Below, piece after piece: positions 7,437 through 63,840 of a stretch of 64,000 nt of DNA (the first letter of the stretch is position 1; every line of letters begins with the position of its first letter). The DNA lies in IMG/VR virus record IMGVR_UViG_3300029238_000243; one strand, 5' to 3'. A program made the translations under genes and the position numbers. Origin of the DNA: a virus. Under the pieces are notes generated by a model. That model saw only the letters and a program-made list of their open reading frames with translations, was not told the DNA's origin and did not search any database.

Positions 7437-7476
7437 ATTTCCTGACGAGTTTTCTAAAATGTGAGCCTTGTTAGTT
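7437..7476 (+). promoter_or_regulatory. Class-A promoter-like box upstream of the sigma-factor gene.
   Basis: TTTCCTGACGAGTTTTCTAAAATGTGAGCCTTGTTAG. Confidence 0.45.
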
Positions 7477-7495: not shown

Positions 7496-7532
7496 CATAT
7501 TTGTTTGCAATATAAGTATCCATATTTAGGAT
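7496..7532 (+). promoter_or_regulatory. Class-B promoter-like box (CCATATTTAGG), placed in tandem after the class-A box.
   Basis: CATATTTAG lies 55 bp upstream of the ATG at 7582. The same decamer recurs about 18 times in the window, always oriented toward a start codon. Confidence 0.4.
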
Positions 7533-7581: not shown

Positions 7582-8610
7582 ATGAGTAAACAGCAGGTAA
7601 GCAACAAGGAATTACAAGCACAAGATACTACTGTTATGCTTGAGAAATATATAGAAGACGAATTAATCGAATCCGAAATGGATAAATGTAAAGAAGATGA
7701 TCAGTATGTATCTGAGTATGAATATGATGAGTCTGATACTTCCGTATCCAATGATGCCATGACAGATTATATGAAACAAATTGGCAACATTAAGATCATG
7801 ACTTCAGAAGAAGAGGTTGCATGTTTTAAACGATTTGAAAGCGGAGACAGAGAGGCTTACGATGAGATTTTCAACCGCAACCTGAAGCTTGTTGTCTCTA
7901 TTGCGAAGAAATATTTTTTAGTTGCAACGAATATGGATCCACTTGATGTCGTTATGGATGGTAATATCGGTTTAATGATAGCAATTCGTAGATTTGACTA
8001 CAGAAGAGGGTATAAGTTTTCAACGTATGCTTCCTGGTGGATCAAACAAACAATCACGAGAGCGATATACAATAACAATAACATGATTAGAATTCCAATA
8101 CACGCAAACGAAGGATTACACAGATACCGTAAACTTATGGAAGAATTGGCGCAATCTGGAAAGCCGGAGCCGCCGGTCAGAGAGATTGCAAAGACAATTA
8201 ATGTTACTGAAGAACAAGTTCTAATCTTTCGAAATATCGTAAACGGAATGGTGAATCCTTCTTCCTTAAACAAACTTGCAAATCAAGAAGAAGATGCTGA
8301 TACAGAGATTCAGGATTTAGTATCTTCCAATATAAACATCGAAAACGAATATATGAACCAGGATCTTAGAGAAACTTTATTTGAAATACTAGATCAATGG
8401 ATAACGAAATATCCAGGAAAAGACAAAGAAAGACAGAGACAGATCATTATAAGGCGTTTTGGTTTAGAGACAGGATCTCCAGAAACCCTGGAAATGATAG
8501 GAGCGGACTACGGCATCACAAGAGAGCGTGTTCGTCAGATTGAGTTGAAGTTCATCCGGTATGCAAGATTACCAAAAAACAAACGAGTATTAAAAGAGTA
8601 CATCGAGTAA
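7582..8610 (+). CDS. Sigma-70 family RNA polymerase sigma factor.
   Basis: It has the region 2 motif FSTYASWWIKQTITRAI and a region 4 HTH (GADYGITRERVRQIELK). Confidence 0.85.
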   Translation: MSKQQVSNKELQAQDTTVMLEKYIEDELIESEMDKCKEDDQYVSEYEYDESDTSVSNDAMTDYMKQIGNIKIMTSEEEVACFKRFESGDREAYDEIFNRNLKLVVSIAKKYFLVATNMDPLDVVMDGNIGLMIAIRRFDYRRGYKFSTYASWWIKQTITRAIYNNNNMIRIPIHANEGLHRYRKLMEELAQSGKPEPPVREIAKTINVTEEQVLIFRNIVNGMVNPSSLNKLANQEEDADTEIQDLVSSNINIENEYMNQDLRETLFEILDQWITKYPGKDKERQRQIIIRRFGLETGSPETLEMIGADYGITRERVRQIELKFIRYARLPKNKRVLKEYIE

Positions 8611-13851: not shown

Positions 13852-13890
13852 TTTCCTGACGAGTTTCTGAAATTATGAGCCTTATGATAT
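13852..13890 (+). promoter_or_regulatory. Class-A promoter-like box followed by a roughly 290-nt leader.
   Basis: ATTTCCTGACGAGTTTCTGAAATTATGAGCCTTATGAT. Confidence 0.4.
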
Positions 13891-21060: not shown

Positions 21061-21100
21061 TCTCCTGACGAGTTTTTCAGATTGTGAGCCTTGTAATAGA
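21058..21100 (+). promoter_or_regulatory. Class-A promoter-like box.
   Basis: CTCCTGACGAGTTTTTCAGATTGTGAGCCTTGTAAT, 45 bp upstream of the ATG at 21143. Confidence 0.45.
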
Positions 21101-24761: not shown

Positions 24762-24798
24762 ATTTCCTGACGAGTTTTCGATATATTGAGCCTTATTG
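24762..24798 (+). promoter_or_regulatory. Class-A promoter-like box.
   Basis: ATTTCCTGACGAGTTTTCGATATATTGAGCCTTATTGT. Confidence 0.45.
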
Positions 24799-34206: not shown

Positions 34207-34404
34207 ATGAAACGACAAAAGAGAAGATATAGGAAAGAACTGCAGCAAGCGAAGACCATCATTCAGAAATTAATGTATGGGGACCAGCTGGTGTGCGAGT
34301 TCTGTACATACGAAGCCGATCAGAGTAGCCCATGTGCAAATGGAGACAAAGAATGGTGCAAAACTCATGCTACGTGGAAAGGGCTTCAAAAAACAAAAGA
34401 ATAA
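34207..34404 (+). CDS. Small Cys-rich protein.
   Basis: It has the motifs CEFC...C...C. Confidence 0.35.
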   Translation: MKRQKRRYRKELQQAKTIIQKLMYGDQLVCEFCTYEADQSSPCANGDKEWCKTHATWKGLQKTKE

Positions 34405-50040: not shown

Positions 50041-51975
50041 TTATGACTGATAGAGTTCTGTTTCGTAATACTCTCCTTGAAGCACACCATTATAGTACAA
50101 CTTCAAAAGTATTATATCATATGTTTCCCCATAAATGTCAAGTGTTTCTCCAGACGGTTCCAAAGTAAATGCATATCCGCTGTCTGTGAAATTCGAATAG
50201 GAACTGTCTGCTTTCTTCAGATAATAGATCTTGTCACCATAATTGAAGACTTCCAGAGAACCTATTGATCCGCCATTTATGTTTCCGCACCAGCCTTCTA
50301 CTCCGCCGTCTTCCGTAAACATGCTTAATGATATTGTCTGTCCATCATTGCTTGAGTAAGAACCCGGTGTATTCCAGAAATTGCCGGTTGGTGTATAGTT
50401 CGGAACCGGGATATTTCCGCTCTGATCAACAGTCTCCTCTTCTGCTTGTACTTCTGTTCCCTCCGGAGCCGTTTCTGTCGGTTCTTCAGTTGTTTCTTCC
50501 ACTACTTCTTCGGTTTCTGTTTCCGGAATTGATTCTGTTACAGTGATATGGGATGCATATATGGCATTCATCTCTGCTTCCCCATTTGTAACCCAATCAT
50601 TGTATGCGTCGTCAGCACCAGAGAAAATAATGTCATCTTCTGTAATGCAGTACCATTCATCAAAACTATAACCGTCAGAATTGATCATCTTGTTTATATC
50701 TTTAAATTGAGTATGTTCGTCTTCATCATAGACAAGCTCATAATCCGATTCCTCAGAATACATAAAAGTAGAATCAGCCAACACAACGTCTATATTCATA
50801 TCTGGATCTTCAATGTATTTATTATATTTTTCAGATTCAGGAACACGATTGAGCATGTAACCACCACCATCTGTCTCATAAGTAAAATATATACGTCCTT
50901 TATATTCTCCGAAATACCACTTTTTATCATTATCTTTTTTCATTTCTGAGAATCCTATATTATTTGATTCACACTGGAATAAAACTCCTCCATGTTCCAC
51001 ATCATCAATCTCATTTATATATAATTTAAGCGGATATTTATATTCACGAATACTAATATATTTTACACCGTATCTATGATCTACATTATATTTAGCCCAT
51101 TGAGGTAATTCCTCTTTCTGCTCCTGCATATGCACAATCGCTGCTGCTCCACCTCCGACAACAAGCGTTCCGGCGACAATGCCTGCGATCACCTTTGTTG
51201 CGATTCCCTTTCCGGCGCCTGCTGCTACTGTGGCTGCGGTTGTTCCGGCAACGGTACTTCCGGTTCCTGCTGCGGCTGTAACTGCTTTAGTTGCCGAAGA
51301 CACTGCAGCCGACATTGCCGGAATCTGTGTCGTCTGTGCCGCTTTAACATCCTCTTTAAGCAGCAACAGGAAGAATGGAATCGGAGCAAGACCATAAAGC
51401 TTGGTCCCCTTCTTTTCAAGATCTAATACTTTGTCCTTGATCTTTTGTCTGCCATAATTCAGGCGGCTCTTAACGGTATTCTCTGATACTTCAAGCACGG
51501 ACGCCATTTCTTTTACAGACATCTGCTCCATATAGAACATTGTGACACAGATGCGCTGTTCATCTGTCAAAGTATCAATGATCTCTTTCATCAGTCTCGT
51601 TGTCTCATTCTGGTCCATAACGATTTCCGGCTGAACAGACACACGGTCATCCACAAAGGTATCACTGATATCCTGTCCGTCTTCGGTTTCTGTTTCTGAA
51701 AACAAGGTTACCTTTCTCCGTTTTAACTCGTTTTTGGAAAGGTTCGACACAATCGTTCCGATCCAGGACTGAAACTTCTCCGGATCTTCCAAGGTATCCA
51801 GAGACTTAAAAGCCTTCACATAGGCATCCTGAACGATATCCTGAGCTGTGTGCTCGCTGTTTAAAAACTTCCTCGCCAGGTAAAAACATTTCGTATACGT
51901 TTTCTCATACAGGTACGTATACGCTTCCTGATCTCCTTTCATTGCTTTTTGTACTGCTTCAGTATAGCTATTCAT
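50041..51975 (-). CDS. ECF-type sigma factor fused to a TM segment and a roughly 380-aa extracytoplasmic C-terminal domain.
   Basis: It has ECF region 2 (DIVQDAYVKAFKSLDTL..FQSWIGTIVSN) and region 4 (LTDEQRICVTMFYMEQMSVKEMASVLEVSENTVKSRL), followed by a hydrophobic Ala/Gly-rich stretch and a long C-terminal domain. Confidence 0.75.
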   Translation of the reverse strand: MNSYTEAVQKAMKGDQEAYTYLYEKTYTKCFYLARKFLNSEHTAQDIVQDAYVKAFKSLDTLEDPEKFQSWIGTIVSNLSKNELKRRKVTLFSETETEDGQDISDTFVDDRVSVQPEIVMDQNETTRLMKEIIDTLTDEQRICVTMFYMEQMSVKEMASVLEVSENTVKSRLNYGRQKIKDKVLDLEKKGTKLYGLAPIPFFLLLLKEDVKAAQTTQIPAMSAAVSSATKAVTAAAGTGSTVAGTTAATVAAGAGKGIATKVIAGIVAGTLVVGGGAAAIVHMQEQKEELPQWAKYNVDHRYGVKYISIREYKYPLKLYINEIDDVEHGGVLFQCESNNIGFSEMKKDNDKKWYFGEYKGRIYFTYETDGGGYMLNRVPESEKYNKYIEDPDMNIDVVLADSTFMYSEESDYELVYDEDEHTQFKDINKMINSDGYSFDEWYCITEDDIIFSGADDAYNDWVTNGEAEMNAIYASHITVTESIPETETEEVVEETTEEPTETAPEGTEVQAEEETVDQSGNIPVPNYTPTGNFWNTPGSYSSNDGQTISLSMFTEDGGVEGWCGNINGGSIGSLEVFNYGDKIYYLKKADSSYSNFTDSGYAFTLEPSGETLDIYGETYDIILLKLYYNGVLQGEYYETELYQS

Positions 51976-55047: not shown

Positions 55048-57651
55048 TTAGTCTACGATATCGCCAATATCATCCGGTTCTACATTCTCTTCCGGATAGA
55101 AACCGGTATCATTAGCATCCTGCCGGAACTCAGGAACATTCATGTCACCAGCGATAGCATCCATTCTAGGGCCAGAAATACTCATATCTCCAGCGATATG
55201 TTCGATATCCGGTTCCTTTTTACCTGCTGCCATAAGTTCGGATGCGATGTAATCGAAGTCATTTGTGGAAACGACCTTGGCATCCGGTTGTAACGGCAGC
55301 TCTTTGTTCTCTGTATACAGTTCCGGTTTCATGGTAAAGATCATATCAGCTTCTGTAGGTTCAAAAACTTCTGTTGCTTTACCAGCGCATACATAAGCTG
55401 CAACCAAGTCACCAAGTGATGGTGTATAGTTGTTTGTATACCGGTGAATCAAAGCTTCCGTTGCGTTCATATATGCTACGTTTGCAATATTCTGGAGTCC
55501 TTTTTCGTGTTCCAATGGTTTGTCTACCCAGATAAATTCGTCCTTTTCGACATCATAGATAAGAGGAACCGTTGCTGTTGATTCGGAGTTAAGGTCAATG
55601 AGTGCTTCTACGGTAGATGGTTCAAAAATCTGACCATTAAACTCATTCCATTTGTCATGCCATACATTTGGATCTAAAGAACCTTGTCTCTGCATGAATC
55701 CGAATTTTACGACATCAAGTTTATTGTATGGAACATTGCTGTAACTATTCACTGACAATACCATATACTTGATACCCGCTTCCCTACATTTCTGCTTATC
55801 GATATCCATATATTCGGCTGAGAATACAGGTGCACTTGTGATATCACCACCATGAATAGCGACAAGATCTCTGGATTTATCATCTTTCTGCACATATGCT
55901 TTCTGATCATAATAAGCGCATTCTGTAATAAGGTTTAAATCTTTATCATAGAAAGCAGCAGAGGTGTCAATATCAATACGCTCCTGATTTTGATTCTGCC
56001 AGCCAATAAACTGACGGATGATATTGCAATTTTTGTCGCCTTTCATAATGGATCCGGAAGTTAAGGAACTACCTTTTGAGGAGCTTCTCTCTCCGTTTTC
56101 TGGAAGCAGCATGTCCACAACATTCGGATCTATATAAACGCGACCTAAATTGTCATGAGTCTGAAGCTGTTTTGAAACAGAATCAATGATTCCTTTTTTG
56201 ATCATCTGCGCCTGGTCTTCTGCAAAATGATAAGTACTTTCCTCTTTTACGAAACGACCAAGTTTTGCGACATGGATGGCACGATACGGAAGTCCTTTTT
56301 CATACAAGTCAACCAGGTTATACAGCTTTAACTGCTCACGGATTGGTGTTTCATATGCGTTTGCGGCATAAATATCACAAATAGCCTGTAACTGATCATG
56401 TTTGATCCCGGCAACCGCAAACTGAATGAAGTTACGATTGAATACGCCAGGAAAATCGTGTGCCGCTTTTTCGGTCAAAGCAAGCGCATCATCGGCACCA
56501 GAACGAACGGCGTCTAAAGCTTTCTGTACGACAGCATAAGGTGATACGATTGGCACTCCAATCTCGTTTACCTTCTGTCCGGAATACAGATTATCGTACG
56601 CTTTCTGTAAACGAGAATAAACGGTATCTCTTGGTACTGATTTTGAAAAAGTCTTAAACAAATCAGGACGAAGCCAGACTGCAGTAAACAGATCGTGCGT
56701 CTTATCCAAAAGGCTATTCATCATTCTTGCTTCCGAACGTGATAATTTAAAGTAAACCTTACCGGCAAGACCTGGTTTATTCTCAATTGTTTCCTGATTA
56801 CGTTTTGTACGCCATTCCAGATGTCCATTATCACGAGTTTCTCCCTTTTTCGGATTCCAAACAAATACTTTCGCTTTGCTTTTTACCGTATGAGTCTTTC
56901 CGTTTGATAATTCCGCAGCCAGACGAAGGACATCAGTTGCTTCGGTAACCAATTTATGCAGCATATCATCTTTTGCACGAGATGTAAGGTTACTGTTTTT
57001 TGTGATGTCGAAAGCAATGGCTGCCTTATTTTCTCGGTTAGGAATAGCCTGCTCATAAACCCATGGAAACCATTCGTTTGTGTCATGCATATAGTTAAGT
57101 AACGTCTCCATTTTAGGTTTTGATAACGAAGCTGTCGAAAACATACGGTCATGCATAGTCTCATGGATCAGGTAGTAATTATCAGTTTCGATCAGTTTTA
57201 AGTCACGATGAAAGTCTTCAAGTAATGGATTACGCTCTGATGCTTCAAATTCTGGACGTAAATCCGGGTTGAGATATTCTGCCAGCTGATTGATATACTG
57301 CTCTACTTCGCTCATTTCCATTACCTGTTCAGGGAAATCAGGATAAAATACAGTAGCATTCTGGAACGCTTCCGCCTGACTGGATTCGCGCACAGAATTC
57401 ATAAGCTTCTGACATTCTTTTACGATCTCAGACTCAGGAAGCGAAACCATGGTATCAAGAAGAGAAAGAGACATGGTACGTCCATAAGCTTCAAGGTTGC
57501 GGTTTGTAGACAAAACAAGCTGCATAGCGCGATCTGATGGATTTTCATTAATCTCAACAGAAGGCATTACCCATGTACCTGTTTCCTGATAGATGACGTC
57601 ACGATATTTAGTCACAAGGTCTTTTTCGTTTAACATAATTATTTCCTCCAT
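55048..57651 (-). CDS. Large 867-aa hypothetical protein with a C-terminal TerD-like domain.
   Basis: It has a long ORF and a TerD-like segment (GWQNQ..RIDIDTSAAFYDKDLNL...AIHGGDITS...MDID). Confidence 0.6.
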   Translation of the reverse strand: MEEIIMLNEKDLVTKYRDVIYQETGTWVMPSVEINENPSDRAMQLVLSTNRNLEAYGRTMSLSLLDTMVSLPESEIVKECQKLMNSVRESSQAEAFQNATVFYPDFPEQVMEMSEVEQYINQLAEYLNPDLRPEFEASERNPLLEDFHRDLKLIETDNYYLIHETMHDRMFSTASLSKPKMETLLNYMHDTNEWFPWVYEQAIPNRENKAAIAFDITKNSNLTSRAKDDMLHKLVTEATDVLRLAAELSNGKTHTVKSKAKVFVWNPKKGETRDNGHLEWRTKRNQETIENKPGLAGKVYFKLSRSEARMMNSLLDKTHDLFTAVWLRPDLFKTFSKSVPRDTVYSRLQKAYDNLYSGQKVNEIGVPIVSPYAVVQKALDAVRSGADDALALTEKAAHDFPGVFNRNFIQFAVAGIKHDQLQAICDIYAANAYETPIREQLKLYNLVDLYEKGLPYRAIHVAKLGRFVKEESTYHFAEDQAQMIKKGIIDSVSKQLQTHDNLGRVYIDPNVVDMLLPENGERSSSKGSSLTSGSIMKGDKNCNIIRQFIGWQNQNQERIDIDTSAAFYDKDLNLITECAYYDQKAYVQKDDKSRDLVAIHGGDITSAPVFSAEYMDIDKQKCREAGIKYMVLSVNSYSNVPYNKLDVVKFGFMQRQGSLDPNVWHDKWNEFNGQIFEPSTVEALIDLNSESTATVPLIYDVEKDEFIWVDKPLEHEKGLQNIANVAYMNATEALIHRYTNNYTPSLGDLVAAYVCAGKATEVFEPTEADMIFTMKPELYTENKELPLQPDAKVVSTNDFDYIASELMAAGKKEPDIEHIAGDMSISGPRMDAIAGDMNVPEFRQDANDTGFYPEENVEPDDIGDIVD

Positions 57652-57685
57652 GATTTGATTGATATATATATGAATGATTATTAGT

Positions 57686-57722
57686 TGACAAAGAGAACGG
57701 CTGCTAGAAAAACCAGCAGCCG
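57686..57722. terminator. Perfect hairpin terminator (CGGCTGCT-AGAAAAACC-AGCAGCCG).
   Basis: The hairpin is visible in the sequence. Confidence 0.55.
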
Positions 57723-58022
57723 AATATGAATGGATACCATGCTCTTTCGAACATTACACAATCAGAACACGAAAACCATATTAGGTCTTCACATTCTGTC
57801 CTCATTTCACAAGAATTCTGATGGCAGGTCAAAAGACCAGCATCAATTGTTTTTATAGAAGTATTCCATTTCGTAATCTCTATTCGCTGATATGAACTGG
57901 TATTACACTGCAATTCTGCAATGTAAGAAAATACAATTAGCAGTTGTATGGATTTACCCAATAGAAGTATCCAGTTTCTTTGTGCGATTATTTTAATCCC
58001 CTCTACATAGTTAAATATGTGC
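57690..58022 (-). ncRNA. Candidate non-coding unit 2, about 300 nt, running from the class-B box at 58011 to the terminator at 57700.
   Basis: It has no credible ORF and contains two copies of the repeat ATAGAAGTATyCnnTTyGTAAT (at 57847 and 57960). Confidence 0.35.
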
Positions 58023-58059
58023 GGGCGATTTACAAAGTAATACGTTTTCTTGTAAACAA

Positions 58060-58362
58060 AAAGAGAAAAGCTGCCGTAACGAACAGCAGCCATAGTTTTG
58101 TGAACAGGTAAGATACCCATAAAGGGTATTATCACATACATGAGTAAATGAAAGTTACTAGCTTTCATTACTCAAACCTTCAGTTATGTAATAGAAGTAT
58201 CCTGTTCGTAATTCTCTTTGCGCATTGTGAACTGATAGGAAACACATATGTGTTTCAAATTTCTGGATTTGACATACTCAAAAATAGAAGAATAGAAGTA
58301 TTCAGTTCGTATTGCGCATGATGTCTCCATTCATCATTTTGCTTACGTATTAAATATGGTAC
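58060..58362 (-). ncRNA. Candidate non-coding unit 1, about 280 nt, running from the class-B box at 58350 to the terminator hairpin at 58060-58098.
   Basis: It contains two repeat copies (58187 and 58300). A class-A box at 58427 lies upstream in tandem. Confidence 0.35.
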
Positions 58363-58426
58363 GCATACTTGCAAACTAAAACGAGTTTTCTCTGATGAAC
58401 GACGGCTATTGTTGTTTACGAATATT

Positions 58427-58462
58427 ACAAGGCTCACTTTTTGGAAAACTCGTCAGGAAAAT
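58427..58462 (-). promoter_or_regulatory. Class-A promoter-like box.
   Basis: Its reverse complement is TTTCCTGACGAGTTTTCCAAAAAGTGAGCCTTGTAAT. Confidence 0.45.
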
Positions 58463-58559
58463 GAGAAAAAGTTTATGTTTATTGACGGATGGGTGTTGGG
58501 CATAAAGAAAAGCCACACTTTGTTGTGTGACTTTTCTTGAAATGATGGGGTATGGGATT

Positions 58560-58868: not shown

Positions 58869-58974
58869 GAGATCCTCCTATAAAAAAGTGTCTGCGACAC
58901 TCTCAACTCCCCTAACCCCTCATTCATGAGGGGAAGGGGTTTTCTTATCTCTTTCTTTATTGTAAAATTCTATT

Positions 58975-60099
58975 ATGAATATATTACAATCCATCTTTAC
59001 CGATTATTATGAACACATCATTTACGAACTCCATCCTCGTCCTGCTGTCATTGAAAATGTCAACAAGATGATTCATTGTGGTGATCCTTCTCACGGTGGT
59101 GCCATGTATGGCTGTCCTCACTGTGGAAATCTTAAATTTGTTCCCTTTCGCTGTAAAAGTCGTTTTTGCCCTTCCTGCGGAAACAAATACAACCAGCTTC
59201 GTTCTTTTCATATGTCCTGTAAGCTTGTTTCTTGCGTTCATCGCCATTGTGTTTTCACTATCCCAGCGGAACTTCGCGTTTATTTTCTCGAAGACAGAAC
59301 TCTCTTAGATTGTTTATTTCATTCTGTTCGTGATGTTGTCTTACGCATGTTTTCCAAAATGAATAAAACCGAAAACTTTACTCCTGGGCTTATCTGTGTT
59401 CTTCACACTTTTGGGCGTGATTTAAAATGGAATCCTCATATCCACGCTCTCATCTCAGAGGGTGGGGCTGGTAACATCACTCCTTGGCGTCCTGTCAAAC
59501 ACTTTGATTACAATTTCCTTCGTAATGCTTTTCGCAAAGTACTGCTTGAACGACTTACCTCCCGCATTGGTCCGGCTTTTCGCAAAGTCAAAAATGAAAT
59601 GTACACGAAACACGCTGACGGCTTTTATGTCCGTGCAAAACCAAATCTTTGCACTCCTGATATCACCATTAAATACATCAGCCGATACCTCGGCAGACCT
59701 GTTATTGCCACATCGCGTATTGATACTTATGACGGTGAAAACGTAACCTTTCATTACACCAGACACGAAGACAATAAAACTGTTACTGAAACCATTCCTG
59801 CTTTAAACTTCATTCAAAAACTCATTGTCCATATCCCCGAAAAACATTTCAAAATGCTTCGCTACTATGGGATATATGCAAAACATCATAAGCAGGAAAT
59901 GAAGCTCCGTAAATGTATTTCTGCCGAAAAACAACGTTTCCTACGTTCTATTCAGGACTGGCGGCAATCCATTCTGCTCTCTTTCGGATACGACCCTCTC
60001 TGTTGTTCCGAGTGTGGTACTTCTATGTTGGTTTTAGAAGTTTACCACAAAAAAACTGCACTATTTGAACAATATCGAAAGGTTATGAAATATGGATAA
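58975..60099 (+). CDS. IS91-family (Y2 HUH rolling-circle) transposase.
   Basis: It has an N-terminal zinc-binding motif (CPHCG..CPSCG), the HUH motif HTFGRDLKWNPHIHALISEGG and the segment RYLGRPVIATSRI. A hairpin (CCCCTAACCCCTCATTCATGAGGGGAAGGGG) lies upstream. Confidence 0.75.
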   Translation: MNILQSIFTDYYEHIIYELHPRPAVIENVNKMIHCGDPSHGGAMYGCPHCGNLKFVPFRCKSRFCPSCGNKYNQLRSFHMSCKLVSCVHRHCVFTIPAELRVYFLEDRTLLDCLFHSVRDVVLRMFSKMNKTENFTPGLICVLHTFGRDLKWNPHIHALISEGGAGNITPWRPVKHFDYNFLRNAFRKVLLERLTSRIGPAFRKVKNEMYTKHADGFYVRAKPNLCTPDITIKYISRYLGRPVIATSRIDTYDGENVTFHYTRHEDNKTVTETIPALNFIQKLIVHIPEKHFKMLRYYGIYAKHHKQEMKLRKCISAEKQRFLRSIQDWRQSILLSFGYDPLCCSECGTSMLVLEVYHKKTALFEQYRKVMKYG

Positions 60100-60356
60100 A
60101 TCCATGTTCATAATAATTCTTTCTCCATAGTCAGATAGTGCAGCTAACCTAAACCAAAACAAAAAACTTCATAAACAACGTCATGGCGAAGCCCCCTTCG
60201 CTCTTTTGTTATGTCATTTTTTATTTCCAGCCTATTATACACTATTTCTGACGATTTGAGAAATTTCCTATAAAGTAAAAAAAGACCACTGCTTTAAACA
60301 GTGATCTTAATAAATCTGCATGGCAAAGGCAGATACTAGTCGTATCTGAATTTTTC

Positions 60357-62278: not shown

Positions 62279-63766
62279 TTACGCAGCTCTTTTGAGTCCA
62301 AAACTGGAAGGGATATGTTTTACGGACCGTAAGATCTCGGTAATACACTGGTCATGCATATTTTTAAACTGAGGATAGTTCTGAAGGCATTTATCACGGT
62401 CTGTGTGTTCCAAAGTATCATCGGAATTCATGAGGAGAAAAGCACTGTAGAGATCACGCTGTACCCATTCTCCGTTTATGGTGTTGTGACGTCTGGAAAG
62501 TTTCTTTCTCCAGTACGTATCACTGGTATGGTCATACTGGCTTGCTTTAAACGTCCAGGTATTGACTTCGTGGTAGGTTCCTCCGGTGTAACCAAGCTTT
62601 CTCTTCAATATGGTAAGAAACTGGGATGGAGCTCTGGTCCCGATGGATTTTCCGAAGCGTTTCTTCCGTTTATATTTCCCTTTCTTATTCTTTTCCGTCT
62701 TTTTGGACCGTTTCTGTAATCCCTTGAAATTCATGTCCTCAACATAAACCTCATTGCCTTCTTCCAATAACAGGTTCGCATAGGCTTCCTGCCATTGTCT
62801 CAATGTGTCGGAACGTTTTCTCTGCATCGCACTGAGTTCGTTACGGATCTTTTTGTACCGGTTGCTGTAGTTCCAGGTTTTCCTTCCCTTCTTTATGGTA
62901 CCGTCCGCATTGTAATTGTCCGGATTGGATGCCCGTCTGGATCGTTCCAGTTTTCGCTGCATCTTCCGGATCTTTTTATCCTGTACTTCAATCCCTTTCC
63001 CAAGTTCTGTGAGATGACATTTTGTATCACTCACTGTAGCAACAGTGGAAGTACCAATATCAATACCGACCCTTCCGGTACCCACTGCATGTCTTAACGG
63101 CGGTGTCCCTTCCTGTACCAATTGTACGTAGTATCTCCATCCGGTACTGAACTTCTTTCTTACAATTCTGCAGTATTTTGTTCTGTCATTTAAAGCAGAA
63201 GTCTCGTAATACCAATGATCCGTGTTTTGATTTCCTGGTAATATCACATCCAGTGTCAGACCACGGTTCTGTCTCTTTGGGGATGCATTGATGTATACTT
63301 TTCCGTCTTTGTAGATGATCCCTGTTGTATTCTTTTTGCCTTCGAAACTTAAGAATTCATCCCATTTCTTGTAATGGATCTGTTTCCCGGTGGAATACAA
63401 TACTTTTTCCACACCTTTCCATACCGAGTCACTGATCTTCTGATAAACTGCAGAATGTACGTATTTTAAGTTACATCTCAGTTTTGTGGCGGATTTCTGG
63501 AGGTCGTATTGTGTGAGCCCGTAAGATTTTACAATAACAGATAACTGTTTTGACAGGGCTACCTTCTCTGGACCTTTCTCAAGTGCCACATACTGCTTTA
63601 AGAGATCCGTATAAGTTTTATCCCGTTTCAGTAATGTGATCTGCCGGATCGCAAAACGACGGATTGTATTACCGATCTTCGCTACTTCTCGGAAATAGTT
63701 TTCCAGGTAACGCTGGTCGGAATATTTCTTTGTATTCAGTTTTAACTCCAGCGTGTAAGTAGGCAT
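62279..63766 (-). CDS. tnpB: TnpB-like RuvC-fold nuclease (IS605 OrfB family).
   Basis: It has RuvC-I (VGIDIGTSTV), RuvC-II (EVYVEDMNFKG) and a C-terminal RDLYSAFLL (RuvC-III-like) motif. The true start is MPTYTLELKL, with the RBS ggaggaaaacgatcATG. Confidence 0.75.
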   Translation of the reverse strand: MPTYTLELKLNTKKYSDQRYLENYFREVAKIGNTIRRFAIRQITLLKRDKTYTDLLKQYVALEKGPEKVALSKQLSVIVKSYGLTQYDLQKSATKLRCNLKYVHSAVYQKISDSVWKGVEKVLYSTGKQIHYKKWDEFLSFEGKKNTTGIIYKDGKVYINASPKRQNRGLTLDVILPGNQNTDHWYYETSALNDRTKYCRIVRKKFSTGWRYYVQLVQEGTPPLRHAVGTGRVGIDIGTSTVATVSDTKCHLTELGKGIEVQDKKIRKMQRKLERSRRASNPDNYNADGTIKKGRKTWNYSNRYKKIRNELSAMQRKRSDTLRQWQEAYANLLLEEGNEVYVEDMNFKGLQKRSKKTEKNKKGKYKRKKRFGKSIGTRAPSQFLTILKRKLGYTGGTYHEVNTWTFKASQYDHTSDTYWRKKLSRRHNTINGEWVQRDLYSAFLLMNSDDTLEHTDRDKCLQNYPQFKNMHDQCITEILRSVKHIPSSFGLKRAA

Positions 63767-63803
63767 GATCGTTTTCCTCCATTTTAGTTTCTTAGCTATA
63801 TAC

Positions 63804-63840
63804 ATCATAAGGCTCACTTTTCGGAAACCTCGTCACATTT
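63804..63840 (-). promoter_or_regulatory. Class-A promoter-like box about 45 bp upstream of tnpB, inside the IS.
   Basis: Its reverse complement is AAATGTGACGAGGTTTCCGAAAAGTGAGCCTTATGAT. Confidence 0.45.

What the first reader, a model, noticed from the sequence alone, without database searches (positions are those of the whole stretch)
57652..58462. An 800-bp non-coding region with two promoter-to-terminator units of about 300 nt, each carrying a repeated 30-nt element
There is no credible ORF between 57652 and 58440. Read on the minus strand, a class-A box (58427) and a class-B box (58350) are followed by two repeat copies and a hairpin plus T-run at 58098-58060. Then comes another class-B box (58011), two more repeat copies and the perfect hairpin at 57722-57686. 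The four repeat copies lie at 57847, 57960, 58187 and 58300. This looks like two paralogous small RNAs of unknown role, such as regulatory, antisense, or decoy or binding-site RNAs. Alternatively it is an operator or origin-like region.
Basis: seen in the sequence. Interest (0 to 1): 0.6.

Follow-up and report, generated by a model that had tools for sequence, protein, structure and literature searches.

The report
Tandem structured RNAs guarding a TerD-like gene
The 800-bp "empty" stretch encodes two paralogous, strongly structured non-coding RNAs, and they are a divergent local form of a widespread RNA module, not found in Rfam 15, that sits in arrays next to one family of TerD-domain protein genes in large phages and some bacteria.

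Summary
On the minus strand there are two promoter-to-terminator units (about 58345-58056 and 58006-57688). Each carries two exact copies of GRATACTTCTAT, which occurs nowhere else in the window. The only long ORF (154 aa) has no relatives below 86% identity.

Each unit folds into two similar domains: an outer helix, an inner helix, the invariant loop AUACUUCUAUU, and variable hairpins. A terminator follows. Across 15 units from related elements, 95% of cells pair and 23 of 39 pairs show compensatory changes.

The units always lie directly upstream of homologues of the 867-aa gene (55048-57651), which encodes a helical-repeat N-domain plus a TerD C-domain. Distant homologues (20-30% identity) carry a related 65-95-nt domain with core CUUCCUUCUA. 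It has strong covariation and no Rfam match. A model of it gave 258 hits in 80 protein-selected phage loci, all on the gene strand, just upstream and downstream of the gene. Some copies sit in tRNA arrays.

My best reading is a dedicated RNA partner or ligand of the TerD-like protein, which also throttles the gene through its terminators. A riboswitch-like leader is the main rival. Function is inferred, not shown. The window's units are linked to the wider family through intermediates, not by a direct model hit.

The parts
58429..58456 (-). Class-A promoter-like box (CCTGACGAG-N14-GAGCCTT) upstream of unit A
   Evidence: the same motif occurs 11 times in the window, mostly in front of genes. 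It is conserved at the same place in L061 and L069.
58351..58375 (-). Class-B promoter-like box of unit A (TTTGCAA-N10-CATATTTA)
   Evidence: It is conserved in front of every unit in L061, L062, L069, L070, L065 and L071.
58056..58345 (-). Unit A RNA, about 290 nt. The 5' end is inferred from the promoter box; the 3' end is the terminator tail.
   Evidence: Fold z = -6.8. Covariation on alignment A5.
58220..58317 (-). Unit A, domain 1. P1 is GCGC 58317-58314 with GCGC 58223-58220. P2 is GAACUGA 58308-58302 with UCAGUUC 58235-58229. The invariant loop AUACUUCUAUU is at 58301-58291.
   Evidence: P1 is 100% paired and P2 99% paired, with compensatory changes in 2 of 4 and 4 of 7 pairs.
58102..58218 (-). 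Unit A, domain 2. The P3 5' strand AAGAGAA is at 58218-58212; it pairs with the terminator tail at 58067-58061. P4 is GAACAGG 58207-58201 with CCUGUUC 58108-58102. The invariant loop is at 58200-58190. The P5 hairpin is 58129-58124 with 58118-58113.
   Evidence: all 7 P4 pairs show compensatory changes. P3 is 86% paired, with 4 of 7 pairs changed on both sides.
58056..58091 (-). Intrinsic terminator A (stem 58091-58069) plus the UUUUCUCUUUUU tail
   Evidence: helix 6: 99% paired.
58012..58036 (-). Class-B promoter-like box of unit B
57688..58006 (-). Unit B RNA, about 320 nt, with two domains. Domain 1: P1 is 57987-57984 with 57887-57884; P2 is 57976-57971 with 57900-57895; the loop is 57970-57960. 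Domain 2: P3 is 57881-57877 with 57696-57692; P4 is 57870-57865 with 57734-57729; the loop is 57864-57854; the P5 hairpin is 57754-57739.
   Evidence: z = -5.1.
57688..57722 (-). Intrinsic terminator B (stem 57722-57698) plus the UUCUCUUUGU tail
55048..57651 (-). The 867-aa gene that the RNAs accompany. It has a helical-repeat N-domain and a TerD beta-sandwich C-domain. No class-A or class-B box lies between terminator B and its ATG.
57704..58168 (-). 154-aa ORF that pipelines call as a gene. I judge it spurious.
   Evidence: It spans terminator A and promoter B. No ORF is called in L061, L062 or L070.

Best explanation
**Shown.** The region encodes two tandem, paralogous, highly structured non-coding RNAs of about 290 and 320 nt. 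Each starts at an element-specific class-B promoter and ends at an intrinsic terminator. Each is built from two copies of one domain: an outer helix, a 4-5-nt internal loop, an inner helix of about 7 bp, the invariant single-stranded loop AUACUUCUAUU, and variable hairpins. In the second domain the outer helix is formed by an AAGAGAA tract pairing with the terminator's UUCUCUU tail. This domain is the window lineage's version of an RNA module that accompanies one protein family (helical-repeat N-domain plus TerD C-domain). In other elements the module has the core CUUCCUUCUA and stands in arrays of 1-6 copies on the gene strand, immediately upstream and downstream of the gene. Some copies sit in tRNA arrays.

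**Inferred.** The modules are the RNA ligand or partner of the encoded TerD-like protein, with the invariant pyrimidine loop and internal loop as the recognition surface. In the window most transcripts would stop at the terminators and yield abundant free RNAs. The fraction that reads through both terminators would be the main or only source of mRNA for the 867-aa gene. That would keep RNA in excess over protein and would allow feedback if the protein binds its own leader.
For: RNA structure in the window's lineage:
- 15 units: 95% of cells paired against 40-46% when partners are slid. 23 of 39 pairs have compensatory changes against 2-8 when slid. 0 of 500 shuffles reach the observed value.
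- Fold z-scores are -6.8 and -5.1.
- The structure is on the sense strand only: G-U 39 against A-C 13.
- The region is not coding.

Linkage to the gene:
- In every relative of the 867-aa protein from 99% down to 40% identity that I fetched with upstream DNA, units of the same build lie directly upstream on the same strand, whatever the upstream neighbour is.
- In L062 and L067 the Shine-Dalgarno sequence follows the terminator tail directly.
- In the window no class-A or class-B box lies between terminator B and the ATG.

Wider family:
- Homologues at 20-30% identity carry the CUUCCUUCUA domain upstream: L001, L174 (Paenibacillus chromosome), L175 and L178.
- 43 domains are 90% paired, with covariation 0.95 against 0.21 shuffled and at most 0.23 slid.
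- An RNA-pattern-only scan of IMG/VR returned 32 loci, and 22 of them have a family protein on the motif's strand, directly downstream of the motif in 15.
- Conversely, in 80 loci chosen by protein alone, model R1 gave 258 hits at E <= 0.01, all on the gene strand, clustered just before and just after the gene. Sequence-only nhmmer gave 165 plus-strand and 0 minus-strand hits in 67 of 80 loci.

Why a partner RNA rather than a plain leader:
- Downstream copies are followed by unrelated ORFs.
- Other copies lie in tRNA arrays of genomes that also have gene-linked copies (L180 with L193, L197 with L185).

Bridge between the window's type and the wide family:
- L237 and L240 (28-29% identical protein, from the same sample as the window) have the core CUUACUUCUAUU. 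They are the top, borderline R1 hits (E 0.014-0.066) at exactly the two upstream domains.
Against: - No experiment or transcript data were available. RNA ends, abundance and protein binding are all inferred.
- Model R1 does not detect the window's domains or the type-II domains of L065 and L071. Homology with the wide family therefore rests on the shared gene family, position, layout, the shared CUUCUA core and the L237/L240 intermediates.
- A sigma-70-like TTGTCA-N17-TATATA lies between terminator B and the ATG (read by eye; not called by the scan). If it is active, the gene may not depend wholly on read-through.
- Many of the 80 IMG/VR loci are near-duplicates, so the hit counts overstate the number of independent events.
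Confidence: 0.45

Rival explanations
1. The units are a cis-acting sensory leader (a riboswitch-like or ion-sensing attenuator). Each domain would be an aptamer. Ligand binding would set how many polymerases pass terminators A and B and so control the TerD-like gene. The tandem units and tandem domains would sharpen the response.
For: - The position is fixed: directly upstream of the same gene family, on the same strand.
- A promoter, structured domains with invariant unpaired nucleotides, and a terminator are followed by the SD and ATG with no room for a promoter in L062 and L067.
- In some wide-family loci the outer helix abuts the start codon or is followed by a U-run.
Against: - I found no conserved alternative (antiterminator) pairing. 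The one candidate in unit A (ACGAACAG with CUGUUCGU) is absent from unit B and from the relatives.
- In the wide family, copies also lie downstream of the gene in front of unrelated ORFs and inside tRNA arrays.
- Arrays reach 6 copies.
- Each unit in the window has its own promoter.
- There is no Rfam riboswitch match.
Confidence: 0.3
2. The units are trans-acting base-pairing small RNAs. The four copies of the pyrimidine-rich loop (ACUUCUAU, which resembles an anti-Shine-Dalgarno sequence) would be seeds that pair with purine-rich ribosome-binding sites or other targets on host or element mRNAs.
For: - The units have their own promoters and terminators, and the invariant 10-nt stretches are single-stranded.
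- CUUCU can pair with AGGAG or GGAGG through G-U pairs, and genes of this element have strong GGAGG-type ribosome-binding sites (read).
Against: - Scanning both strands of the window for duplexes with the seed gave only the antisense of the units themselves; nothing stood out at a ribosome-binding site.
- The core stays invariant across elements whose proteins are only 40% identical, and it is related across 20-30% identity. That fits recognition by a conserved macromolecule better than co-evolving mRNA targets.
- The strict physical linkage to one gene family is not expected for a general regulator.
Confidence: 0.12
3. The feature acts at the DNA level: operator sites, iterons or an origin, or recombination sites that mobilise the TerD-like gene as a cassette.
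For: - Four identical 12-mers lie in 450 bp.
- In the wide family, arrays flank the gene on both sides, superficially like cassette boundaries.
- The element encodes ParA/ParB and an integrase elsewhere in the window.
Against: - Spacings are 101, 230 and 106 bp, not head to tail.
- What is conserved is pairing potential with compensatory changes, not sequence.
- G-U pairs exceed A-C mismatches about 3- to 6-fold, so the fold exists on the sense strand only.
- All 258 model hits are on the gene strand.
- In the window the units are precisely bracketed by promoter boxes and terminators.
Confidence: 0.04
4. The region encodes a real 154-aa protein (57704-58168, minus strand), as public gene calls assume.
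For: The ORF is open in the window and in L060. Shorter versions (138 aa) are called in L057 and L059.
Against: - Only three relatives exist, all at least 86% identical, among 1.84 billion representatives.
- There is no Pfam or PHROG hit.
- The ORF runs through an intrinsic terminator and a promoter box.
- No ORF is called at the equivalent place in L061, L062 or L070, while the RNA helices there are kept by compensatory changes.
Confidence: 0.02

Closest known systems
Bacterial Y RNAs (YrlA/YrlB) with Ro60/Rsr
   Same: - One to several structured ncRNAs are encoded right next to, and on the strand of, the gene for a large helical-repeat protein that binds them.
- The RNAs are modular and associated with tRNA-like contexts.
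- Such pairs also occur in phages (from my knowledge of Chen et al. 2014 and the Sim and Wolin reviews).
- Here RNA modules flank a helical-repeat protein gene, and some copies sit in tRNA arrays.
   Different: - The C-domain is TerD rather than vWA.
- The RNA matches no Y RNA model in Rfam.
- This is an analogy in layout only.
Autoregulatory mRNA leaders bound by their own gene product (ribosomal-protein leaders, T4 gp32/RegA-type)
   Same: A structured, conserved RNA lies immediately 5' of one specific gene family, with invariant loop nucleotides suited to protein recognition. The gene is expressed only through that RNA.
   Different: - Here the domains are multiplied (4 in the window, up to 6 elsewhere).
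- They also lie 3' of the gene and in tRNA arrays.
- In the window they have their own promoters and terminators.
Type III toxin-antitoxin loci (ToxIN-like: repeat RNA, terminator, then the protein gene read through it)
   Same: A promoter is followed by repeated RNA elements, an intrinsic terminator, and a protein gene that depends on read-through, so RNA is made in excess over protein.
   Different: - The repeats are not head-to-tail 34-36-nt units. They are about 90-nt folded domains with spacings of 101-106 nt.
- The protein is 867 aa and is not a ToxN/AbiQ-type endoRNase.
- No PADLOC defence model matches.
Tandem riboswitches / transcription attenuators
   Same: Tandem similar domains with conserved junction nucleotides are followed by an intrinsic terminator in front of the regulated gene.
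   Different: No conserved antiterminator was found, there is no Rfam match, and copies occur outside 5' leaders.

Membership tests
CUUCCUUCUA RNA domain flanking TerD-like genes (model R1, defined here) | A match to covariance model R1 (P1, GG-CUAU, P2, CUUCCUUCUA, YAG, P2', GCUUUCC, P1') | tested here: not met
   With filters off, no match above noise falls on the four domains of the window's units. The only match inside the units, 58170-58146, scores 9.2 bits at E 5.8. Types I and II in L061-L071 are not detected either. The intermediates L237 and L240 are detected weakly (E 0.014-0.066).
CUUCCUUCUA RNA domain flanking TerD-like genes (model R1, defined here) | Located next to, and on the strand of, a gene of the helical-repeat + TerD family | tested here: met
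   The window's units lie directly upstream of 55048-57651 (minus strand). The same holds in all relatives fetched with upstream DNA. For the family, all 258 hits are on the gene strand.
CUUCCUUCUA RNA domain flanking TerD-like genes (model R1, defined here) | Two nested covarying helices, with an invariant pyrimidine core containing CUUCUA immediately 3' of the inner helix's 5' strand | tested here: met
   for the window's type. Core series: CUUCCUUCUAA (family), CUUACUUCUAUU (L237), CCUACUUCUAUU (L065 and L071) and AAUACUUCUAUU (window).
Any Rfam 15 family | A match at the family's gathering score | tested here: not met
   There are no matches in the window at gathering thresholds. The best sub-threshold hit is a terminator-like match to suhB/mmgR at 29 of 41 bits. 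There is none for the wide-family loci L001, L174, L175 or L178 at E <= 1.
Y RNA / Ro60 ribonucleoprotein | The partner protein has the TROVE (Ro60) fold | tested here: not met
   [not shown]
Type III toxin-antitoxin (ToxIN-like) | A head-to-tail array of short repeats processed by an adjacent endoRNase toxin | tested here: not met
   Repeat spacings are 101, 230 and 106 nt with unrelated sequence in between. There is no PADLOC hit for the protein. The protein's fold is a solenoid plus TerD.
Riboswitch / transcription attenuator | Mutually exclusive terminator and antiterminator pairings conserved among relatives, and ligand binding | tested here: inconclusive
   Inspection of the alignment and the helix search found no conserved alternative pairing. 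Ligand binding cannot be tested with these tools.
Iterons / operator array | Conserved DNA sequence repeats without strand-specific RNA-type pairing | tested here: not met
   There are compensatory changes and an excess of G-U over A-C. The copies have one orientation only and are irregularly spaced.
Protein-coding gene | An ORF conserved in diverged relatives | tested here: not met
   (only relatives at 86% identity or more). (no ORF called in diverged loci).
Base-pairing sRNA | Complementary target sites | tested here: inconclusive
   No target stands out in the 64-kb window. The rest of the roughly 364-kb element and the host genome were not available.

The most novel reading that the evidence does not exclude
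The helical-repeat + TerD proteins and their flanking RNA arrays form a previously unrecognised, widespread RNA-protein system of large phages, megaplasmid-like elements and some Firmicutes. Dozens-of-nucleotide structured modules carrying an invariant CUUCUA-type loop would be bound, or used as cofactor, scaffold or decoy, by the protein. This would be a functional counterpart of Ro60/Y RNA that evolved independently. The window's two units would be a lineage that turned the modules into autonomous, highly expressed small RNAs.
Probability: 0.35. Interest if true: 0.8.

Novelty: new variant of a known kind. Interest (0 to 1): 0.66.

Why it matters
TerD-domain proteins are common in bacteria and in huge gut phages, and they are reported as highly transcribed there (PMC12880540). 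Their molecular role remains obscure.

A dedicated, strongly covarying RNA module almost always sits beside one large TerD-containing family: about 77 of 80 protein-selected phage loci have a hit. The module has no match in Rfam 15. This gives a concrete, testable handle on that family. It suggests the proteins work on or with RNA, or that their expression is controlled by an unusual multi-copy RNA element.

For annotation, it removes a spurious 154-aa 'gene' that public pipelines call. It also supplies two promoter motifs and an RNA model that could be applied to many jumbo-phage genomes.

Tried and rejected
1. Similarity searches of the region against phage and plasmid records found nothing for the RNA region. 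Only the neighbouring IS91-like element matched.
2. A first collection scan with two copies of the 10-nt core gave 55 IMG/VR hits. None carried the extended repeat, so I treated them as chance. The refined pattern gave 27 GTDB-genome hits, and none matched the unit profile in nhmmer. The metagenome scan added only close relatives.
3. Rfam found no family, at gathering thresholds or at permissive E-values.
4. I tested the trans-target idea by computing duplexes of the seed against both strands of the window. Nothing beyond self-antisense appeared. The 1-mismatch copy at 7510-7521 lies inside a class-B promoter spacer and is within chance expectation.
5. Leader-peptide idea: the GGAG-ATG-5-codon ORF in unit A is not conserved in L151, L061 or L062.
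6. Antiterminator idea: the alternative pairing in unit A is not conserved.
7. I looked for a pseudoknot between the core and the 5' GGAG or inner hairpins. The partners are not conserved (by eye).
8. A tRNA or tRNA-like gene: ARAGORN found none. The CUUCUA resemblance to a tRNA-Arg(UCU) anticodon loop has no flanking stem.
10. Literature searches for the protein family names, the core sequence and TerD with RNA motifs found no description. Large unnamed catalogues of candidate phage RNAs (PMC10690425) could still contain it.
Full report
**1. What is in the window**

Read on the minus strand, the stretch 58456-57688 holds these features in order:

- a class-A box (58455-58429);
- a class-B box (58375-58353);
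- about 290 nt ending in an intrinsic terminator (stem 58091-58069, T-rich tail to 58056);
- a second class-B box (58036-58014);
- about 320 nt ending in a second terminator (57722-57698, tail to 57688);
- 36 nt later, the ATG of an 867-aa gene (57651-55048).

The 12-mer GRATACTTCTAT occurs exactly four times, twice per unit, and nowhere else in 64 kb. At up to one mismatch there are 5 matches against 0.97 expected, and 0 of 100 shuffles reach 5. The two units align end to end and their terminators are paralogous.

Both box types are genuine recurrent motifs of this element. There are 11 class-A boxes (TGACGAG-N14-GAGCCTT) and 28 copies of the class-B element [AC]CATATTTA in the window. Many of them lie 30-60 nt in front of a Shine-Dalgarno sequence and start codon, on the correct strand. 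The hexamer spacings of these boxes do not fit the sigma-70 consensus (read). The element encodes at least two sigma factors, so an element-specific polymerase specificity is plausible; this is an inference.

**2. Not a protein**

A 154-aa ORF (57704-58168, minus strand) is open, and pipelines call it as a gene in public assemblies. It crosses terminator A and promoter B. It has no Pfam or PHROG match. An exhaustive HMMER search of 1.84 billion representative proteins found only three relatives, all at least 86% identical. In diverged relatives no gene is called there.

**3. Source and relatives**

The window is identical to part of a 363.7-kb contig from JGI sample 3300045988. The element carries ParA/ParB, RecJ, UvrD, PIF1, SSB, an integrase, Bro-N, sigma factors, BspA-type LRR proteins, TnpB and an IS91-family transposase. 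I could not settle from this window whether it is a huge phage or a megaplasmid.

Homologues of the 867-aa protein at 99-40% identity were traced to their contigs. Every locus that had upstream DNA showed the same build directly upstream on the same strand:

| Locus | Protein identity | Upstream RNA units |
|---|---|---|
| L061 | 74% | two units |
| L069 | 66% | two units |
| L062 | 65% | one unit |
| L070 | 55% | one unit |
| L065, L071 | 39-41% | two shorter 'type II' units, each with one domain and the core CCUACUUCUAU |

The upstream neighbour gene differs between loci. A metagenome scan with the RNA pattern added 15 more, closely related, loci. None of the 27 hits in GTDB genomes, nor the 55 first-pass viral hits, was a true unit.

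**4. Structure of the units**

Single-sequence folds of 12 units agree on the architecture. Both window units are much more stable than shuffled controls, with z = -6.8 and -5.1. The architecture is as follows.

- Domain 1: P1 (GCGC with GCGC), a 4-5-nt internal loop on each side, and P2 (GAACUGA with UCAGUUC). P2 encloses the invariant AUACUUCUAUU plus variable hairpins.
- Domain 2: P3 (AAGAGAA pairing with the terminator tail UUCUCUU) and P4 (GAACAGG with CCUGUUC). P4 encloses the second AUACUUCUAUU, variable hairpins and a conserved tetraloop hairpin, P5.
- The terminator hairpin sits between the 3' strands of P4 and P3.

The helix immediately 5' of each core changes sequence from unit to unit, yet always finds its complement downstream. 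Examples are GAACUGA/UCAGUUC, GGAUUGA/UCAAUCC, GAACCGA/UCGGUUC, GAGUAGA/UCUACUC, GGCAAA/UUUGCC and AAACGGG/CCCGUUU.

On a 15-unit alignment (A5), 95% of cells pair, against 40-46% when partners are slid by 1-3 columns. 23 of 39 pairs carry compensatory changes, against 2-8 when slid and 10.9 +/- 2.0 in shuffles; 0 of 500 shuffles reach the observed value. All 7 pairs of P4 covary. One caveat is that the structure string was derived from unit A, and many sequences are related. The per-helix compensatory changes and the slid controls remain convincing. G-U pairs outnumber A-C mismatches 39 to 13, so the fold belongs to the sense-strand transcript.

**5. The gene depends on the units**

No class-A or class-B box lies between terminator B and the ATG. 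In L062 and L067 the Shine-Dalgarno sequence follows the terminator tail within about 10-25 nt. The 867-aa gene is therefore most simply transcribed by read-through from the units' promoters.

There is one caveat. In the window, TTGTCA-N17-TATATA overlaps the tail of terminator B and could be a weak host-type promoter. The consensus scan did not call it.

**6. The protein**

NCBIfam gives a partial, sub-threshold match to NF041916 (MXAN_6230/SCO0854 family) over the C-terminal half. There is no PADLOC match and no PDB sequence match. Pfam TerD is seen weakly in 3 of 19 family members.

**7. The wider RNA family**

Distant homologues (20-30% identity, about 700 aa, some named 'TerD family protein' by NCBI) also have long upstream spacers. 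These spacers contain 1-4 tandem copies of a 65-95-nt domain. Its layout is P1, GG-CUAU, P2 (7 bp), CUUCCUUCUA(A), a variable part, YAG, P2', GCUUUCC, P1'. I saw it in L001 (IMG/VR), L174 (Paenibacillus camerounensis chromosome), L175/L176 and L178.

The association holds in both directions.

- **RNA to protein.** A scan of IMG/VR using only the three conserved sequence pieces returned 32 loci. 22 have a family protein on the motif's strand, directly downstream of the motif in 15. About six look like chance hits inside coding sequence. Four lie inside tRNA gene arrays, and two of those are on contigs that also have gene-linked copies.
- **Covariation.** 43 distinct domains (A4) give 90% pairing against 53% shuffled. 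Covariation is 0.95 against 0.21 shuffled and at most 0.23 slid. 12 of 14 pairs show compensatory changes. G-U to A-C is 42 to 7. The helices were not part of the search pattern, so this test is not circular.
- **Rfam.** Rfam 15 has no match at E <= 1.
- **Protein to RNA.** A covariance model (R1) was run on 80 IMG/VR loci selected only by the protein. It gave 258 hits at E <= 0.01. All are on the gene strand, clustered just upstream and just downstream of the gene. Only L237, L240 and the partial L264 lacked hits.
- **Sequence-only check.** nhmmer found 165 plus-strand and 0 minus-strand hits in 67 of 80 loci, with 1-3 upstream copies in 56 loci and 1-6 downstream copies in 34.
- **Downstream copies.** These are followed by unrelated ORFs.

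Many of the loci are near-duplicates, so the counts are not independent events. R1's E-values are rough.

**8. Is the window's RNA a member of that family?**

R1 does not detect the window's domains, nor types I and II elsewhere. Membership by model is therefore not met. Four observations make divergent homology the simplest reading, although it is an inference.

1. The protein family, strand and position are the same.
2. The layout is the same: outer helix, 4-5-nt internal loops, a 7-bp inner helix, a pyrimidine core directly after the inner helix's 5' strand, and a variable insert.
3. Both occur as tandem multiplicity.
4. The cores form a graded series: CUUCCUUCUAA (family), CUUACUUCUAUU (L237/L240), CCUACUUCUAUU (type II) and AAUACUUCUAUU (window).

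L237 and L240 encode a protein 28-29% identical to the window's protein and come from the same sample. Their two upstream domains are the top, borderline R1 hits (E 0.014-0.066).

**9. Mechanism**

Shown:
- promoter-to-terminator structured RNAs;
- strict linkage to one gene family;
- invariant single-stranded loops.

Inferred, as my preferred reading: the modules are the RNA ligand or partner of the TerD-like protein. The reasons are these:

- Copies occur 5' and 3' of the gene and in tRNA arrays, where they would be released as small stable RNAs.
- Multiplicity reaches six.
- The loop sequence is invariant across very different hosts, which suits recognition by a conserved macromolecule.
- The window lineage gave each pair of domains its own promoter and terminator, which suits making free RNA in excess.

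The terminators would at the same time keep the protein's mRNA low, and they would allow feedback if the protein binds the leader.

The main rival is a sensory attenuator (riboswitch-like). It fits the 5' position and the terminators. It does not fit the 3' and tRNA-array copies, and I found no conserved antiterminator.

A base-pairing sRNA with anti-SD-like seeds found no target in the window. DNA-level roles and a protein-coding reading are contradicted by the covariation, the strand asymmetry and the lack of ORF conservation.

**10. Known or new**

There is no Rfam family. I found no paper linking TerD-family genes to an RNA motif. Large unnamed catalogues of candidate phage RNAs exist (PMC10690425), and I could not check them.

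The closest known arrangements are Ro60/Y RNA, autoregulatory leaders and type III toxin-antitoxin loci. In each case a defining feature was tested and not met. I therefore describe the resemblance as functional analogy only.

**Verdict:** a real feature; a new RNA family or variant of the general kind 'gene-associated structured ncRNA'; function unproven.

Noticed in passing
window 58880-60282 (transposase ORF 58975-60099, plus strand): An IS91-family (Y2_Tnp + Zn_Tnp_IS91) element is inserted just upstream of the RNA locus. It is absent at this place in the sister contigs L057 and L059, and no transposase gene is called there in L060. Copies 93-96% identical sit at the ends of other 'Bacteriophage sp.' gut contigs, so it is an active repeat that breaks assemblies.
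   Followed up: partly
window, whole (e.g. 7443-7469, 13857-13883, 21066-21092, 24768-24794, 39438-39412, 63835-63809; the CATATTTA boxes are listed): Two recurrent promoter-like motif classes occur across the window. Class A is TGACGAG-N14-GAGCCTTAT (11 copies). Class B is TTTGYA-N10-12-CATATTTA (28 copies of its CATATTTA part). Many copies lie in front of ribosome-binding sites and start codons. The hexamer spacings do not fit sigma-70, and the element encodes its own sigma factors (7582-8610 and 50041-51975).
   Followed up: partly
window 58282-58289 (minus strand): An 8-nt tandem duplication (TTCTATTT) lies right after the first invariant loop of unit A. It is present only in this contig and absent in L057, L059 and L060. 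The site therefore tolerates insertion, consistent with a variable region of the fold.
   Followed up: no
window 7504-7526 (plus strand): The only other near-copy of the repeat (GGATACTTATAT on the minus strand, 7510-7521) lies inside the spacer of a class-B promoter in front of the sigma-factor gene 7582-8610. It is within chance expectation, but it would be complementary to the RNA loop if transcribed.
   Followed up: partly
window 58505-58538: A near-perfect hairpin (AAGAAAAGCCACAC / GTGTGACTTTTCTT) with A- and T-runs on both sides looks like a bidirectional terminator closing the upstream gene block. It is conserved in L061 (1119-1150).
   Followed up: no
L175 1960-2745 and 5260-5740: This distant locus has a tRNA cluster directly upstream of the RNA domain and the family gene. 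It has two further domain copies downstream of the gene, weak sub-threshold YrlA-like Rfam hits near tRNAs, and Thg1-like and PemK-like genes nearby.
   Followed up: no
L180, L197, L201, L209 (IMG/VR jumbo-phage contigs): Copies of the CUUCCUUCUA domain sit between tRNA genes in phage tRNA arrays, away from any family gene within the stretch held.
   Followed up: partly
window 62279-63817 (minus strand): A TnpB-like (OrfB_IS605) 512-aa gene has a class-A box at 63835-63809. I did not look for an associated omega-RNA.
   Followed up: no
window 34225-34337 (minus strand): This is the best R1 hit in the window, and it is not significant (10.5 bits, E 2.5). It reads GGGCUAC...CUUC...CUUUCC. I treated it as noise.
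   Followed up: no
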